DNA of 64,000 nucleotides from an uncultured Clostridia bacterium (GTDB taxonomy: Bacteria; Bacillota; Clostridia; TANB77; CAG-508). Location: positions 16,914 to 80,913 of the forward strand of contig CAKOTZ010000006.1 of NCBI GenBank assembly GCA_934120395.1. The letters run 5' to 3'. The notes below the pieces were generated by a model. The model was not told where the DNA came from. It saw nothing but the letters and a program-made list of their open reading frames with translations, and did no database searches. This document shows positions 27,757 through 30,023 of this stretch, piece by piece; position 1 is the first letter of the stretch; each line of letters begins with the position of its first letter. A program made the position numbers and the translations under genes.

Positions 27757-27918
27757 AAATTTAGTCGTTCCGTGAGAGCGTAAATATTGTTGATTACGGC
27801 TAGAAACTTACCATACAAAGGTAAGTTTTTTGTTATTTATACTTTACAAGTTCAAGATAATCATATAAAACATATTCAATAAATTAACATAAAATTACAT
27901 AAGAAAGAGGGAGAAAAA

Positions 27919-27993
27919 TGAACTTGAAAAGTAACAAAGCGATTACACTGGTAGCATTGATAATTACAATATTTTTATTGCCTATGAAATAAG
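27919..27993 (+). pseudogene. 5' remnant of a pilin-like/FGE paralog (MNLKSNKAITLVALIITIFLLPMK*)
   Basis: It matches the first ~60 nt of the 28761 gene, and the upstream promoter/hairpin segment is duplicated at 28600-28760. Confidence 0.45.
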
Positions 27994-28760
27994 TAACAAT
28001 AATAATTTTCAATATAATGCAAGTAAAAAATTGTTTTTTAAGCAATAATTTTTATTTACTACTAGAAGTAGCTAACATTTTATGATACAATTATATTCGT
28101 TGTCGGCTCTCCACAACAGAGGGAGGTGTAACGCTTGGAGTACATAATTTCCTTTTTTGTGTCTATCGGAGTAGAAGTAGTTAGTTACTATATCTGCAAA
28201 TGGCTAGATAAACACAAGCACGACAATTAGCCAAAAAAACAGAGGAGCTGCAACTCCTCTGTTTTTTGCGTGAAACACTTGGTTATCACATAATTTCCTC
28301 TTTAGTATTTACATTATAGCATATTGTTTTTTGATTTACAAGTGTAATTATAAAATTCATGCAAAGGTAAGCCTACTTTACCGCCTACACAAAAATATAT
28401 GAAAATTTAGCCGTTCCGTTCTCCAAGGCGCTTGGACAACAGTCCTTTCAAATTTTAATGAACACATTCTAAACTTGTGGAATGAATAACTGCTTCAAGG
28501 TCGAACTCACTATTAAATTTTATATATTTTTGCCTACGGCTAGTGAAAGGTAGTTTAGTGTATTGAAATAGATACTACATTAGCGAGAAGAACAAAAAAA
28601 TACCATACAAAGGTAAGTTTTTTTCATTTGTACTTTACAAATTCAAAATTATAATATAAAATGTATTTAAATAATTAACATAGAATTACATAATATTGCT
28701 TAAAGATGGATAAGCTAAAATAGTAATTATGTTAGAAATACAAAGGAAAGAGGTATAAAA

Positions 28761-30023
28761 ATGAACTTGAAAAGTAACAAAGCAATCACATTGATAGCAT
28801 TGATAATCACAATAATTATATTGCTAATATTAGCAGGAGTGAGTTTGTCAATGGTGCTAGGAGAAAATGGTTTAATTAACAAGGCACAGTCAAGTGTAAA
28901 CAAATACAAAGAGAGTAGCGAAAATGAACAAAAGCTATTAAATAGTATAGAAAATTATATGGATTTACAACTAAAATTACCAGGAGAAAAAGTAGATTTA
29001 CCAGATGGATGGAATAAAGATACAGTAGATGCAGTATTAGATGATAAGAAAAACACAATACCAGTACCAAAGAACTTCTATTATGTAGGAGGGAATTTAG
29101 ATAATGGAGTAATTATATCGGACAATTCAGCTGATGCCTATGATGGAAAAGTAGACAAAACAACATGGGAATATACAACAAGCTTAGTAGGCAACCAATT
29201 TGTATGGATACCATGCACAGAATCTGAATATCATAAGACAGAATGGGAAAGTCAAAGTCAATATGTTTATGGTGTATACGATAAATCGGGACCAAGTCAA
29301 GATGAAATAGATAAAGTTAAAAAATATAATGGTTTTTATGTAGGAAGATATGAAGCAGGGTTAGCAGACACAATAAAAGAATATACAGGAAATCAATTAA
29401 GCGATGGTTCAAATAGTCCAGGATATAATGTAGCAGGAATACCAAAGTCAAAGGCAGGAGAATTACCATGGATATTTATTAACCAAACAAATAGTAAAGC
29501 AAATGCAGAAAAAATGTATGAAAAAAATACTTGTGTAACAAGTGGACTAGTAACAGGAACACAATGGGACGTAATGTTAAACAAATTTATTGGAACAACA
29601 AATGCTAATAGAGTAACTTTTACAGAAGCAGACATGAAAAATTCAAGTAAATGGGGAAATTGTTATAATAATGACTTGATATATACAGGAAGGTCAGCAA
29701 CATTATTTAAGAATGGAAGTAGTGAGTATATAAGCCCATGGGGAGAAAAACAAATAAATGCGGAAACAAAAACAAATACATGTACCGAATATACAACTGG
29801 TGCCAGTAAGTCTACAGAAGCATATCATATTTATGATGTAGCAGGGAATGTATGGGAATGGACGGAGGAGGTCGGACAAGGCACTGCATATCGCGTCATT
29901 CGTGGTGGTTCTTGTGGGAATGATCAAGATACTAGTCCAGCGTGTTGGCGTTATTCTACTCTCAAAGATTATGAGGTGTACTATCACATCGGATTTCGTA
30001 CTGTATTGTATATAAAAAATTAG
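28761..30023 (+). CDS. pilin-like N-terminus + FGE-sulfatase (C-type-lectin fold) domain protein; diverged DGR-target paralog
   Basis: A prepilin-like segment KAITLIALIITIIILLILAGVSL. It has GNVWEWT...AYRVIRGGSC, and its C-terminal 120 nt resemble the TR with changes at A and non-A positions. Confidence 0.75.
   Translation: MNLKSNKAITLIALIITIIILLILAGVSLSMVLGENGLINKAQSSVNKYKESSENEQKLLNSIENYMDLQLKLPGEKVDLPDGWNKDTVDAVLDDKKNTIPVPKNFYYVGGNLDNGVIISDNSADAYDGKVDKTTWEYTTSLVGNQFVWIPCTESEYHKTEWESQSQYVYGVYDKSGPSQDEIDKVKKYNGFYVGRYEAGLADTIKEYTGNQLSDGSNSPGYNVAGIPKSKAGELPWIFINQTNSKANAEKMYEKNTCVTSGLVTGTQWDVMLNKFIGTTNANRVTFTEADMKNSSKWGNCYNNDLIYTGRSATLFKNGSSEYISPWGEKQINAETKTNTCTEYTTGASKSTEAYHIYDVAGNVWEWTEEVGQGTAYRVIRGGSCGNDQDTSPACWRYSTLKDYEVYYHIGFRTVLYIKN

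What the first reader, a model, noticed from the sequence alone, without database searches (positions are those of the whole stretch)
27757..30023. Second, diverged target paralog, a 5' gene remnant and duplicated promoter segments upstream of the DGR
Gene 28761-30023 has the same pilin-like plus FGE architecture. Its C-terminal 120 nt differ from the TR at both A and non-A positions (ggcgg versus ggtgg, tgc versus tgt), and its 3' end does not share the TR/VR2 terminal sequence (...cgggttccgtgccgtact). It looks like an older or decommissioned target. Upstream, 27919-27993 is a truncated copy of the gene's first ~25 codons. The promoter and hairpin block (ataccatacaaaggtaagtttttt...) and the 3' end of the AAA-ATPase gene (ctacacaa.aatatatgaaaatttag.cgttccgt) are each present twice. 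This points to cassette duplication and rearrangement.
Basis: seen in the sequence. Interest (0 to 1): 0.55.

Follow-up and report, generated by a model that had tools for sequence, protein, structure and literature searches.

The report
Fixed paralog cassette beside a DGR
Next to a working mutation-generating retroelement sits a second, intact copy of its target gene that the element does not rewrite. That copy lies in a 1.6-kb cassette present in some strains and absent in others, which is an ordinary arrangement apart from one unexplained ultra-conserved 42-base element.

Summary
Gene 28761-30023 is a full-length paralog (70% amino-acid identity) of the DGR target 30149-31414, with the same predicted lectin/FGE fold. 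A 24-codon 5' stub lies at 27918-27992, and three upstream blocks occur twice.

The paralog is not a current DGR target:
- Its VR-equivalent differs from the TR at 39 of 115 positions, only 12 of them at TR adenines.
- Its IMH-like end carries five GC-to-AT changes.
- No adenine-compatible template exists in the window.
- It is static between two strains (2 of 118), whereas VR2 differs at 14-16 of 118 against an identical TR.

"Decommissioned target" cannot be shown. About 15 paralogs in relatives, none next to an RT in the DNA fetched, show similar divergence from the TR.

The "duplicated promoter and ATPase 3' end" are not a recent local duplication. They are two diverged copies of an upstream module that heads every gene of a lineage-specific multigene family in uncultured gut Clostridia. 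The module starts with a 42-mer that is invariant or one base off in nearly all copies found in relatives.

The block module plus gene 1 (28371-30010) is missing from two otherwise about 98%-identical strains, so it is a strain-variable cassette.

Verdict: a known kind of arrangement (a stable paralog beside a diversified one, in a tandem paralog cluster) of modest interest. The 42-mer element remains unexplained.

The parts
26404..27756 (+). AAA_14/DUF4143 ATPase gene. This is context: its last 8 codons (CYRLHNNI*) read into element copy A.
   Evidence: Pfam hits. The alignment with element copies shows that homology starts at 27732, inside the ORF. The DUF4143 ATPases next to family genes in L003 and L025 are distant paralogs with different ends.
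27732..27803 (+). Family element copy A, short form. It comprises a diverged 42-mer (27732-27773), an 11-nt filler, and the 3' arm ending in ACGGCTAG.
   Evidence: The same short form is found at L002 11255 and L024 13063. The ortholog is present in strains L045 and L084.
27802..27830 (+). Hairpin followed by a T-run (intrinsic-terminator-like), module copy A.
   Evidence: Flagged by the terminator scan. Conserved in all module copies.
27843..27871 (+). Promoter-like site of copy A, TTTACA-17-TAAAAC. The last base of the -10 hexamer is C, not T.
   Evidence: Read from the sequence. It aligns with the copy B promoter.
27918..27992 (+). 5' stub of a family gene (MNLKSNKAITLVALIITIFLLPMK*). Homology ends at 27981.
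   Evidence: It is identical in L084 and differs by at most one base in L045, so it predates the cassette polymorphism.
27994..28370 (.). Unrelated insert that truncates the stub. It holds a 31-codon ORF at 28135-28230 (+) encoding a hydrophobic peptide with a charged tail, a bidirectional terminator at 28234-28267, and a convergent promoter-like site at 28341->28313. It is a type I toxin-antitoxin-like candidate.
   Evidence: (repeat I15), and 29 (a weak SpF66 sRNA hit below threshold). There are no Pfam or NCBIfam hits. The stretch 28075-28171 is deleted in L045 and L084.
28371..30010 (+). Strain-variable cassette: element B, hairpin, promoter, 5' UTR and gene 1 up to 13 nt before the end of its stop codon.
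   Evidence: Absent from L045 (85.6-kb contig) and L084 (148-kb contig), which are otherwise about 98% identical. In its place they carry a 44-nt palindrome.
28378..28543 (+). Family element copy B, long form. It comprises the 42-mer (28378-28419) and 18-nt inverted-repeat arms (28390-28407 and 28515-28532) around a conserved insert, and ends in ACGGCTAG.
   Evidence: (I14).
28596..28623 (+). Hairpin followed by a T-run, module copy B. The stem is weaker than in copy A.
   Evidence: (D18).
28634..28662 (+). Promoter-like site of gene 1, TTTACA-17-TAAAAT.
   Evidence: 10 of 12 consensus matches. Conserved in 22 module copies.
28761..30023 (+). Gene 1: an intact paralog of the DGR target that is not diversified. 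It has an N-terminal membrane helix and a CLec/FGE-fold ectodomain.
29893..30007 (+). VR1, the VR-equivalent of gene 1. It is not adenine-specific against the TR, and its IMH-like end is degraded.
30044..30072 (+). Promoter-like site of gene 2, TAGACA-17-TAAAAT.
   Evidence: The region is retained in the cassette-less strains.
30149..31414 (+). Gene 2, the active DGR target (VR2 at 31287-31401).
31526..33173 (+). DGR core: Avd 31526-31891, RT 31869-32885, TR 32915-33029, and RT-14 RNA 33028-33173.

Best explanation
Gene 1 is an intact, fixed-sequence member of a large, lineage-specific family of membrane-anchored surface proteins with a lectin/FGE fold. It lies directly upstream of the one family member (gene 2) that the DGR rewrites.

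Why the DGR does not touch gene 1: its VR-equivalent no longer matches the TR at non-adenine positions, and the GC-rich 3' recognition stretch shared by TR and VR2 is degraded. Mutagenised cDNA therefore has no homing site there.

How the units are built: every family gene carries the same upstream module. In order, the module is a 42-nt near-invariant element with an inverted-repeat-bounded insert, a terminator-like hairpin, a TTTACA-17-TAAAAT promoter, a UTR of about 95 nt, and the conserved N-terminal helix.

What the finding region is: module debris plus one complete unit.
- Copy A is a short module heading a 21-codon stub. An unrelated insert that looks like a toxin-antitoxin module cut this stub off.
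- Copy B is a long module heading gene 1.
- Copy B plus gene 1 behaves as a single cassette that is present in some strains and absent in others. It was probably gained or lost by recombination involving the conserved module sequences.

The result is one stable receptor variant next to one hypervariable variant.

Shown: paralogy and fold, non-target status, family-wide distribution of the module, and the presence/absence polymorphism with its exact junctions.
Inferred: promoter and terminator function, the recombination mechanism and direction of the indel, and the biological role of a stable copy.
For: - Non-target status. VR1 against the TR has 39-40 mismatches, 12 at adenines. Five of 19 IMH-like positions are changed, all GC to AT. 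No adenine-compatible template is found, while the VR2 positive control finds the TR. VR1 differs at 2 of 118 positions between the window and L001, which is background level.
- The DGR is active on gene 2. The TR is identical in 7 sequences, yet four VR2 variants differ at 14-16 of 118 positions, 13-14 of them at TR adenines. In the VR2 codons there are 14 nonsynonymous and 2 synonymous differences; in the rest of gene 2 there are 1 and 24.
- Gene 1 looks functional. It is intact in two strains with pN/pS 0.35. The AlphaFold model has pLDDT 89, and its best PDB matches are the DGR variable proteins TvpA and TaqVP.
- The module is family-wide. There are 25 nhmmer hits in 10 loci, all on the gene strand. 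The 42-mer is identical in 11 of the 16 copies in relatives and one base off in 4. Homology starts at the same base whatever lies upstream. Paralogs occur in arrays of 2-6 with no RT in the fetched flanks.
- Not a local duplication. Copy A and copy B are 83% identical, but each is 86-93% identical to copies elsewhere.
- Cassette polymorphism. L045 and L084 lack 28371-30010. L001 has gene 1 followed by gene 2.
Against: - Only two strains carry gene 1 and only two long contigs lack it.
- The direction of the indel (gain or loss) is unresolved. The cassette-less strains keep AAAAATTAG, which matches the last codons of gene 1 and argues for loss. Gene 1 alone ends YIKN* rather than the family's usual YIK*, so its stop codon lies in flanking DNA, which argues for an insertion junction.
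- No element copy lies on the right side of the cassette, so simple repeat-to-repeat recombination does not explain the junctions.
- Promoters and terminators are consensus matches only.
- The rest of the source genome was not available, so a distant second TR cannot be excluded absolutely.
Confidence: 0.75

Rival explanations
1. Gene 1 is a former DGR target that was decommissioned. It was once rewritten by this TR or an ancestral one, then lost its IMH and drifted.
For: - The VR-equivalent is clearly homologous to the TR.
- In gene 1, 8 of the 10 TR AAY codons encode another residue.
- The 60 nt just upstream of VR1 are about 90% identical to gene 2 and equally GC-rich.
- All five IMH changes are GC to AT, as expected for relaxed constraint in a genome of about 30% GC.
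Against: - The same pattern (20-54 mismatches to the TR, AT-rich 3' ends) is seen in about 15 family paralogs that are not next to an RT in the DNA fetched, so it does not mark a former target.
- The conserved 5' flank encodes the NVWEWTEE...RGGSC core of the fold, which is constrained anyway.
- The opposite history fits equally well: the DGR captured one member of an older, stable family. Surveys call such copies conserved 'ancestor' genes (PMC3521204).
Confidence: 0.3
2. Gene 1 is an active target of a second template repeat located outside the 64-kb window.
For: Remote targets more than 370 kb from the RT are documented (PMC3521204). Only 64 kb of this genome was available.
Against: - No compatible template was found in the window or in 84 loci, even allowing 15 incompatible positions.
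- VR1 differs at only 2 of 118 positions between two strains, and neither position is a TR adenine. VR2 differs at 14-16 in comparable strain pairs.
- There is no GC-rich IMH-like end and no hairpin downstream of VR1.
Confidence: 0.05
3. The repeated upstream blocks arose from a recent tandem duplication of the ATPase 3' end, the promoter and the gene 5' end within this locus.
For: The repeated blocks share the same order and orientation, about 650-840 nt apart.
Against: - The two copies are 83% identical to each other, but 86-93% identical to copies in other genomes.
- The 42-mer of copy B is identical to copies in five other contigs, whereas copy A differs at 3 positions.
- Copy A is the short form and copy B the long form.
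- The 42-mer is not ATPase sequence. It follows or precedes family genes in loci that have no ATPase.
Confidence: 0.08
4. The 42-mer element with its inverted repeats is an active DNA site that moves or switches the cassettes. It could be a site-specific recombination site (integron-like) or an invertible switch. On this view the gene 1 cassette was inserted by that machinery rather than by general recombination.
For: - The 5' edge of homology is sharp and identical in at least 6 different upstream contexts.
- The left end of the cassette indel lies within 7 nt of the first base of the 42-mer.
- The 42-mer is far more conserved than the rest of the module.
- 18-nt inverted repeats bound a 105-nt segment, with two compensatory changes that keep the repeats complementary.
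Against: - No recombinase gene is next to the arrays in the loci examined.
- None of the 13 long-form copies is inverted.
- No element lies at the right cassette junction or in the cassette-less strains at that site.
- Short forms lacking one repeat arm exist.
- An RNA or promoter role would explain the conservation equally well.
Confidence: 0.15

Closest known systems
Non-diversified paralogs of DGR target genes, the 'conserved ancestor genes' of the DiGReF survey (Schillinger et al. 2012, PMC3521204)
   Same: A diversified FGE-sulfatase/CLec target coexists with a homologous gene that has no adenine-specific VR. The target belongs to a larger gene family. Duplication of targets next to the DGR core is common.
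   Different: Here the stable paralog sits immediately upstream of the active target, inside a cassette that varies between strains. It keeps a recognisable but degraded VR and IMH homolog.
DGR variable proteins with the C-type lectin/FGE fold: TvpA of Treponema denticola (PDB 2Y3C) and TaqVP of Thermus aquaticus (PDB 5VF4)
   Same: These are the best structural matches of the gene 1 model (Foldseek E 1.5e-4 and 2.2e-4, probability 1.0). The VR-equivalent occupies the C-terminal strands of the fold.
   Different: Sequence identity is only 10-15% and TM-scores are 0.34-0.48. Gene 1 has an N-terminal transmembrane, pilin-like helix followed by a long helix, not a lipoprotein signal. Gene 1 itself is not diversified.
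Tandem paralog clusters with a conserved intergenic unit, such as the Staphylococcus aureus lpl cluster (Tsuru and Kobayashi 2008, PMC2568036)
   Same: Both are tandem arrays of surface-protein paralogs. In both, the intergenic region and the adjacent gene ends are conserved, and copy number and order differ between strains through recombination at conserved segments.
   Different: The conserved unit here is the upstream module plus the N-terminal helix, with a sharp 5' edge at a near-invariant 42-mer. One family member is additionally coupled to a DGR. Recombination breakpoints were not mapped on a phylogeny.
Type IV pilins and pseudopilins (prepilin N-terminal methylation motif, Pfam PF07963)
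   Same: A short basic leader is followed by a hydrophobic helix of about 20 residues. Ten of 70 family members give weak N_methyl hits.
   Different: All hits are below the Pfam threshold (15.9 against 21.2 bits for gene 2, none for gene 1). Gene 1 has Ala rather than Gly before the helix, and there is no Glu at +5. 'Pilin-like' describes the shape only and does not establish membership.

Membership tests
Active DGR target (variable protein with a cognate VR) | The VR differs from the TR only, or almost only, at TR adenines. | tested here: not met
   Gene 1 has 39 of 115 mismatches, 12 at adenines and 27 elsewhere. Gene 2 has 12 of 12 at adenines.
Active DGR target (variable protein with a cognate VR) | The 3' end of the VR carries the GC-rich IMH-like stretch shared with the TR. 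| tested here: not met
   Gene 1 reads TCGGATTTCGTACTGTATT against TCGGGTTCCGTGCCGTACT, five changes in 19 positions. No hairpin lies downstream.
Active DGR target (variable protein with a cognate VR) | Strains that share the TR show hypervariation at TR-adenine positions. | tested here: not met
   VR1 differs at 2 of 118 positions between the window and L001. VR2 differs at 14-16 of 118 between the window and L045 or L046, and L084 carries a fourth VR2 variant. Only one strain pair was available for VR1.
Active DGR target (variable protein with a cognate VR) | A CLec/FGE fold with the variable segment at the C-terminus. | tested here: met
   Pfam FGE-sulfatase scores 27.3 bits against a threshold of 23.3. 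The model has pLDDT 89, and its top PDB matches are TvpA and TaqVP.
Active DGR target (variable protein with a cognate VR) | A cognate TR exists somewhere in the genome. | tested here: inconclusive
   None was found in the 64-kb window or in the fetched loci, and the positive control worked. The rest of the source genome was not available.
Stable (non-VR) paralog of a DGR target family | A full-length homolog of the target with an intact ORF under purifying selection and no adenine-specific VR. | tested here: met
   70% amino-acid identity to gene 2. The gene is intact in the window and in L001, with pN/pS 0.35. The VR tests are given above.
Tandem paralog cluster with a conserved intergenic unit (lpl-like) | Arrays of paralogs share a conserved intergenic and 5' segment. 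| tested here: met
   Arrays of 2-6 genes are found in L024, L025, L026 and L042. 22 module copies were aligned.
Tandem paralog cluster with a conserved intergenic unit (lpl-like) | Unit number differs between strains. | tested here: met
   The cassette 28371-30010 is present in the window and L001 and absent in L045 and L084.
Tandem paralog cluster with a conserved intergenic unit (lpl-like) | Rearrangements are produced by homologous recombination at the conserved segments. | tested here: inconclusive
   The left junction abuts the 42-mer, but the right junction has no repeat partner. Differences between strains cluster in patches, which suggests gene conversion. This was not tested on a phylogeny.
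Type IV pilin / prepilin-type N-terminal domain | Gly at -1, a hydrophobic residue at +1, Glu at +5, and an N_methyl profile match above threshold. | tested here: not met
   Gene 1 reads NKA|ITLIAL and gene 2 reads AKG|ITLVAL, with no Glu at +5. N_methyl scores 15.9 bits against a threshold of 21.2 for gene 2 and gives no hit for gene 1.
Integron-like gene cassette | A recombination site on each cassette, together with an adjacent integrase and an attI site. | tested here: not met
   The loci examined carry no integrase next to the arrays, and no element lies at the right junction.
Invertible promoter/UTR switch (cwpV- or fim-like) | Inverted repeats bound a segment that is found in both orientations, with a recombinase. 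| tested here: inconclusive
   18-nt inverted repeats bound 105 nt. All 13 long copies are in one orientation. Read-level data were not available.
Type I toxin-antitoxin (Fst/PepA1-like), for the insert at 27994-28370 | A small hydrophobic toxin ORF, a convergent antisense RNA that shares a bidirectional terminator, and a family profile match. | tested here: inconclusive
   The ORF, terminator and convergent promoter-like site are present. There is no Pfam or NCBIfam hit. The Rfam SpF66 hit scores 27 bits, below the 42-bit threshold.

The most novel reading that the evidence does not exclude
The near-invariant 42-mer, with its inverted-repeat-bounded insert, may be a dedicated cassette-boundary element of this uncultured gut Clostridia lineage. 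It could be a recombination site, or a small regulatory RNA or switch, that governs turnover or expression of a whole family of surface-receptor genes. The locus would then combine two diversification modes: shuffling of fixed-specificity cassettes, and DGR retrohoming on one captured member.
Probability: 0.2. Interest if true: 0.6.

Novelty: new member of a known kind. Interest (0 to 1): 0.3.

Why it matters
The locus shows in one place how a DGR host keeps a stable receptor variant beside a hypervariable one, and that the stable copy is itself dispensable between strains.

For annotation, it warns against calling every VR-like paralog near an RT a target or an ex-target. In this family, VR-like tails are the norm even in arrays with no RT nearby.

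The family-wide upstream module, with its 42-base core that is invariant or one base off in nearly all copies found in relatives, is a concrete and testable candidate for a new regulatory or recombination element in an uncultured gut lineage.

Tried and rejected
- Exact look-up of the gene 1 protein: not on record.
- Phage and plasmid collections, by DNA and by protein: no match.
- Genome-contig scan: only relatives at 46% identity or less, all uncultured Clostridia MAGs, and none carries the module.
- JGI metagenome scan for the 42-mer core: 15 hits, all chance matches inside unrelated genes.
- Viral scan with an adenine-degenerate VR1 pattern: 34 hits, and all 12 checked are poly-A runs. This was a flaw in my pattern design.
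- Rfam at gathering and at E-value thresholds: nothing for the element.
- RNAalifold on 10 long-form copies: too little variation, with 1 compensatory pair in 48.
- A minus-strand 29-codon ORF across the element: rejected. It has no ribosome-binding site, it is frameshifted in one copy, and it is absent from short forms (read).
- The idea that the element is the ATPase 3' end: rejected.
- The idea that the shared 8-mer GTTCCGTG links element copy A to the IMH: judged to be chance. It occurs three times, but two of those are the homologous VR/TR pair, and the long-form element does not have it.
- The small ORF has no relatives in the fetched loci other than its own truncated orthologs in L045 and L084.
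Full report
**Setting.** The window carries a complete DGR.
- The target, gene 2, is at 30149-31414 with VR2 at 31287-31401.
- Avd is at 31526-31891, the RT at 31869-32885 and the TR at 32915-33029.
- The Rfam RT-14 RNA lies at 33028-33173 with 122.9 bits.
- TR and VR2 differ at 12 positions, all TR adenines.
- The finding concerns the 2.3 kb upstream of gene 2.

**Check of the observation.**
- Gene 1 (28761-30023, 420 aa) is collinear with gene 2. 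They are 74% identical in DNA over 1187 nt and 70% in protein, and both pass the Pfam FGE-sulfatase threshold.
- VR1 (29893-30007) differs from the TR at 39 of 115 positions, 12 at adenines and 27 elsewhere.
- The 19-nt GC-rich stretch that ends both TR and VR2 (TCGGGTTCCGTGCCGTACT) reads TCGGATTTCGTACTGTATT in gene 1. All five changes are GC to AT.
Homology with gene 1 ends at 27981.
- The hairpin-and-promoter block and the 42-nt block are each present twice, with BLAST E-values of 1e-25 and 5e-11 inside the window.

**Is gene 1 a DGR target?** I used three tests.
- Template search. I converted VR1 into a pattern in which each non-A base may also be A, which is what a cognate TR must satisfy. 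It finds no partner in the window or in any fetched locus, even with 15 incompatible positions. The same test on VR2 finds the TR with 0 incompatible positions in the window and in six other strains.
- Strain comparison. The RT protein is 100% identical on 8 public contigs. The TR is identical in all 7 sequences I could read, yet four different VR2 versions exist. They differ pairwise at 14-16 of 118 positions, 13-14 of them TR adenines. Across the VR2 codons there are 14 nonsynonymous and 2 synonymous differences, against 1 and 24 in the rest of gene 2. The only other strain with gene 1 (L001, 97.6% identical over 2.6 kb) differs in VR1 at 2 of 118 positions, which is the background rate, and neither position is a TR adenine.
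- Downstream hairpin. VR1 is not followed by any stable DNA hairpin. VR2 is followed only by a small 4-bp one.

The DGR is active on gene 2 and does not rewrite gene 1.

**Is gene 1 decaying?** No.
- It is intact in both strains, with pN/pS about 0.35.
- An AlphaFold model built on 70 homologs has mean pLDDT 89 and pTM 0.82.
- Its best PDB matches are the DGR variable proteins TvpA (2Y3C) and TaqVP (5VF4), followed by FGE-family enzymes.
- The 'pilin-like' N-terminus is a basic leader followed by a hydrophobic helix. It fails the prepilin criteria: there is no Glu at +5, gene 1 has Ala at -1, and N_methyl scores are below threshold.

**The family.**
- Gene 1 has more than 6400 database relatives.
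- Close relatives (62-96% identity) come only from gut metagenome assemblies. The species-representative genome collection holds only relatives at 46% identity or less, labelled uncultured Clostridia or Clostridiaceae.
- In the close relatives the genes stand in arrays of two to six, at several chromosomal sites, with no RT in the fetched flanks.
- The six-gene array L042 probably belongs to the same genome as the DGR-bearing contig L084. This is an inference: they come from the same sample and have coverage of 127x and 126x.
- The VR-equivalents of these paralogs differ from the window's TR by 20-54 of 115 positions, with one outlier at 81. Most have AT-rich 3' ends like gene 1.
- Gene 1 therefore looks like an ordinary family member. 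Whether it was ever a target cannot be decided from this evidence.
- DGR surveys already report that diversified genes usually coexist with stable paralogs (PMC3521204).

**The 'duplicated' blocks.** Aligning the regions around every copy of the 42-mer shows a conserved upstream module that heads every family gene. The same module also heads genes with a different ectodomain (Flg_new) but the same N-terminal 50 residues. In order, the module contains:
- the 42-mer TTACCGCCTACACAAAAATATATGAAAATTTAGCCGTTCCG;
- a variable middle;
- the motif ACGGCTAG;
- a small hairpin region;
- a hairpin followed by a T-run, CTTACC-ATACAAA-GGTAAG-T6 (flagged as terminator-like);
- the promoter-like TTTACA-17-TAAAAT;
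- a UTR of about 95 nt and the start codon.

The middle comes in three forms: a long form with a 105-nt insert between 18-nt inverted repeats, a short form of 11 nt, and a still shorter form that lacks the 3' repeat arm. Window copy B is the long form and copy A is the short form.

The 42-mer is identical in 11 of the 16 copies found in relatives and one base off in 4. Adjacent module sequence and the coding regions are only about 76-93% identical. Homology begins at the same base whether the upstream neighbour is a family gene, an ATPase, an NPCBM gene or the toxin-like insert.

The ATPase ORF of the window simply runs 8 codons into copy A. The DUF4143 ATPases next to family genes in L003 and L025 are distant paralogs with different ends.

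The two window copies are 83% identical to each other but 86-93% identical to copies in other genomes. They are therefore old family members, not a recent local duplication.

**Strain-variable cassette.**
- Two long contigs (L045 at 85.6 kb and L084 at 148 kb) are about 96-99% identical to the window on both sides, but lack window 28371-30010.
- The missing block starts 7 nt before the 42-mer of copy B and ends 13 nt before the end of gene 1's stop codon. It is exactly one module-plus-gene unit.
- In its place these strains carry a 44-nt near-perfect palindrome (DNA fold -17.5 kcal/mol, z -8.5).
- They keep copy A, the stub and the insert at 27994-28370.
- They have lost 28075-28171 by deletion between TAGAAGTAG repeats, which removes the start of the small ORF.
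- L001 shows the gene 1-gene 2 arrangement in another sample.

The direction of the event is unresolved.
- For loss: the cassette-less strains retain AAAAATTAG, which matches gene 1's last codons.
- For insertion: gene 1 is the only one of about 25 family genes that ends YIKN* rather than the usual YIK*. Its stop codon therefore lies in DNA shared with the cassette-less strains, as expected for a recombination junction inside the last codons.
- An ancestor holding both the palindrome and the cassette would explain both haplotypes.
- Differences between the window and L001 cluster in patches, and gene 1 and gene 2 share stretches of 95-98% identity within a 60-75% background. Both patterns suggest gene conversion among family members.

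**The stub and the insert.**
- The stub keeps the module, although the last base of its -10 hexamer is C instead of T, and it keeps 21 homologous codons.
- From 27982 the sequence is unrelated to any family locus.
- That insert holds a ribosome-binding site and a 31-codon ORF at 28135-28230, encoding a hydrophobic helix with a KHKHDN tail.
- It also holds a perfect bidirectional terminator at 28234-28267 and a convergent promoter-like site at 28341->28313.
- This layout resembles type I toxin-antitoxin modules, but no profile supports the assignment. The only RNA hit is below threshold. I treat it as a candidate.

**What the 42-mer element is remains open.**
- Rfam has nothing.
- The copies are too alike for covariation statistics.
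- Two independent compensatory changes keep the inverted repeats complementary. The second pairing, TAGCCGT with ACGGCTA, shows only disruptions.
- All 25 detected copies are on the gene strand, and none of the 13 long forms is inverted.
- No recombinase gene accompanies the arrays.
- The candidate roles are a recombination or cassette-boundary site, a promoter (TTACCG-17-GAAAAT) of a small RNA ending at the hairpin, or an invertible switch. None could be tested with the data in reach.

**Verdict.** 'Decommissioned' is unproven, and 'duplication' is better described as two members of a family-wide module. The arrangement belongs to known kinds: a stable paralog beside a DGR target, and a tandem paralog cluster with conserved intergenic units (PMC2568036). 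Interest is modest. The near-invariant 42-mer element is the one feature that could prove new.

Noticed in passing
window 28135-28267 (with 28341->28313 on the minus strand): A 31-codon ORF (TTG start, ribosome-binding site AGGGAGGTG) encodes a hydrophobic helix with a KHKHDN tail. It is followed by a perfect bidirectional terminator and faces a convergent promoter-like site, which is a type I toxin-antitoxin-like layout. No protein profile hit was found, and the Rfam SpF66 hit is below threshold. Its 5' part is deleted in strains L045 and L084.
   Followed up: partly
window 33028-33173: Rfam RT-14 RNA (RF02921, 122.9 bits) lies directly after the TR. It is a described RT-associated RNA motif.
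   Followed up: no
window 33194-33472 (+) and 33485-33922 (-); L005 11468-12066; L013 2059-2721: A 92-aa OB-fold protein and a 145-aa protein consisting only of MutS domain I follow the DGR. Both are also found next to Avd and RT in two distant MAG loci (39-42% and 41% identity). The MutS-like protein fits the MSL accessory class of Wu et al. 2018 (PMC5758913). The passages of that paper that I read do not mention an OB-fold partner.
   Followed up: partly
L045 8102-8146 and L084 9821-9865 (between window 28370 and 30011): A 44-nt near-perfect palindrome (TGTAGGTTAGTCAAT...ATTGACTAACCTACA) occupies exactly the site of the gene 1 cassette in the cassette-less strains. It occurs nowhere else in the window or the fetched loci.
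   Followed up: partly
between window 36049 and 36057: Strains L045 and L084 carry an extra 398-aa DUF4143 ATPase gene on the minus strand, a block of about 1.45 kb that the window lacks. This is a second presence/absence polymorphism near the DGR.
   Followed up: no
window 34745-35170 and 35226-35996: A D-Ala-D-Ala carboxypeptidase (Peptidase_S11/PBP5) gene is split into two ORFs. The same split is present in L045 and L084, so it is conserved in the species rather than being a sequencing error in one assembly.
   Followed up: no
window 27767, 31387, 33015: The 8-mer GTTCCGTG occurs only three times in the window: in element copy A, in the end of VR2, and in the end of the TR (0.22 expected by chance). 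Two of the three are homologous copies and the long-form element lacks it, so this is probably chance.
   Followed up: yes
L042 6626-7165; L043 1862-2401: A ToxN-family toxin gene sits inside the six-gene paralog array of a relative, which is probably the same genome as L084.
   Followed up: no
window 22780-28074: This stretch is markedly more diverged from L045 and L084 than the flanks. About 650 nt do not align, and the rest is 95.8% identical against 98.3-99.1% in the flanks. This could be a recombination tract adjoining the cassette.
   Followed up: no
window 28356-28371: TCATGCAAAGGTAAG, just left of the cassette junction, matches the loop and 3' arm of the module hairpin as it appears in L001 (CATGCAAAGGT is shared). 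It may be a further module remnant.
   Followed up: no
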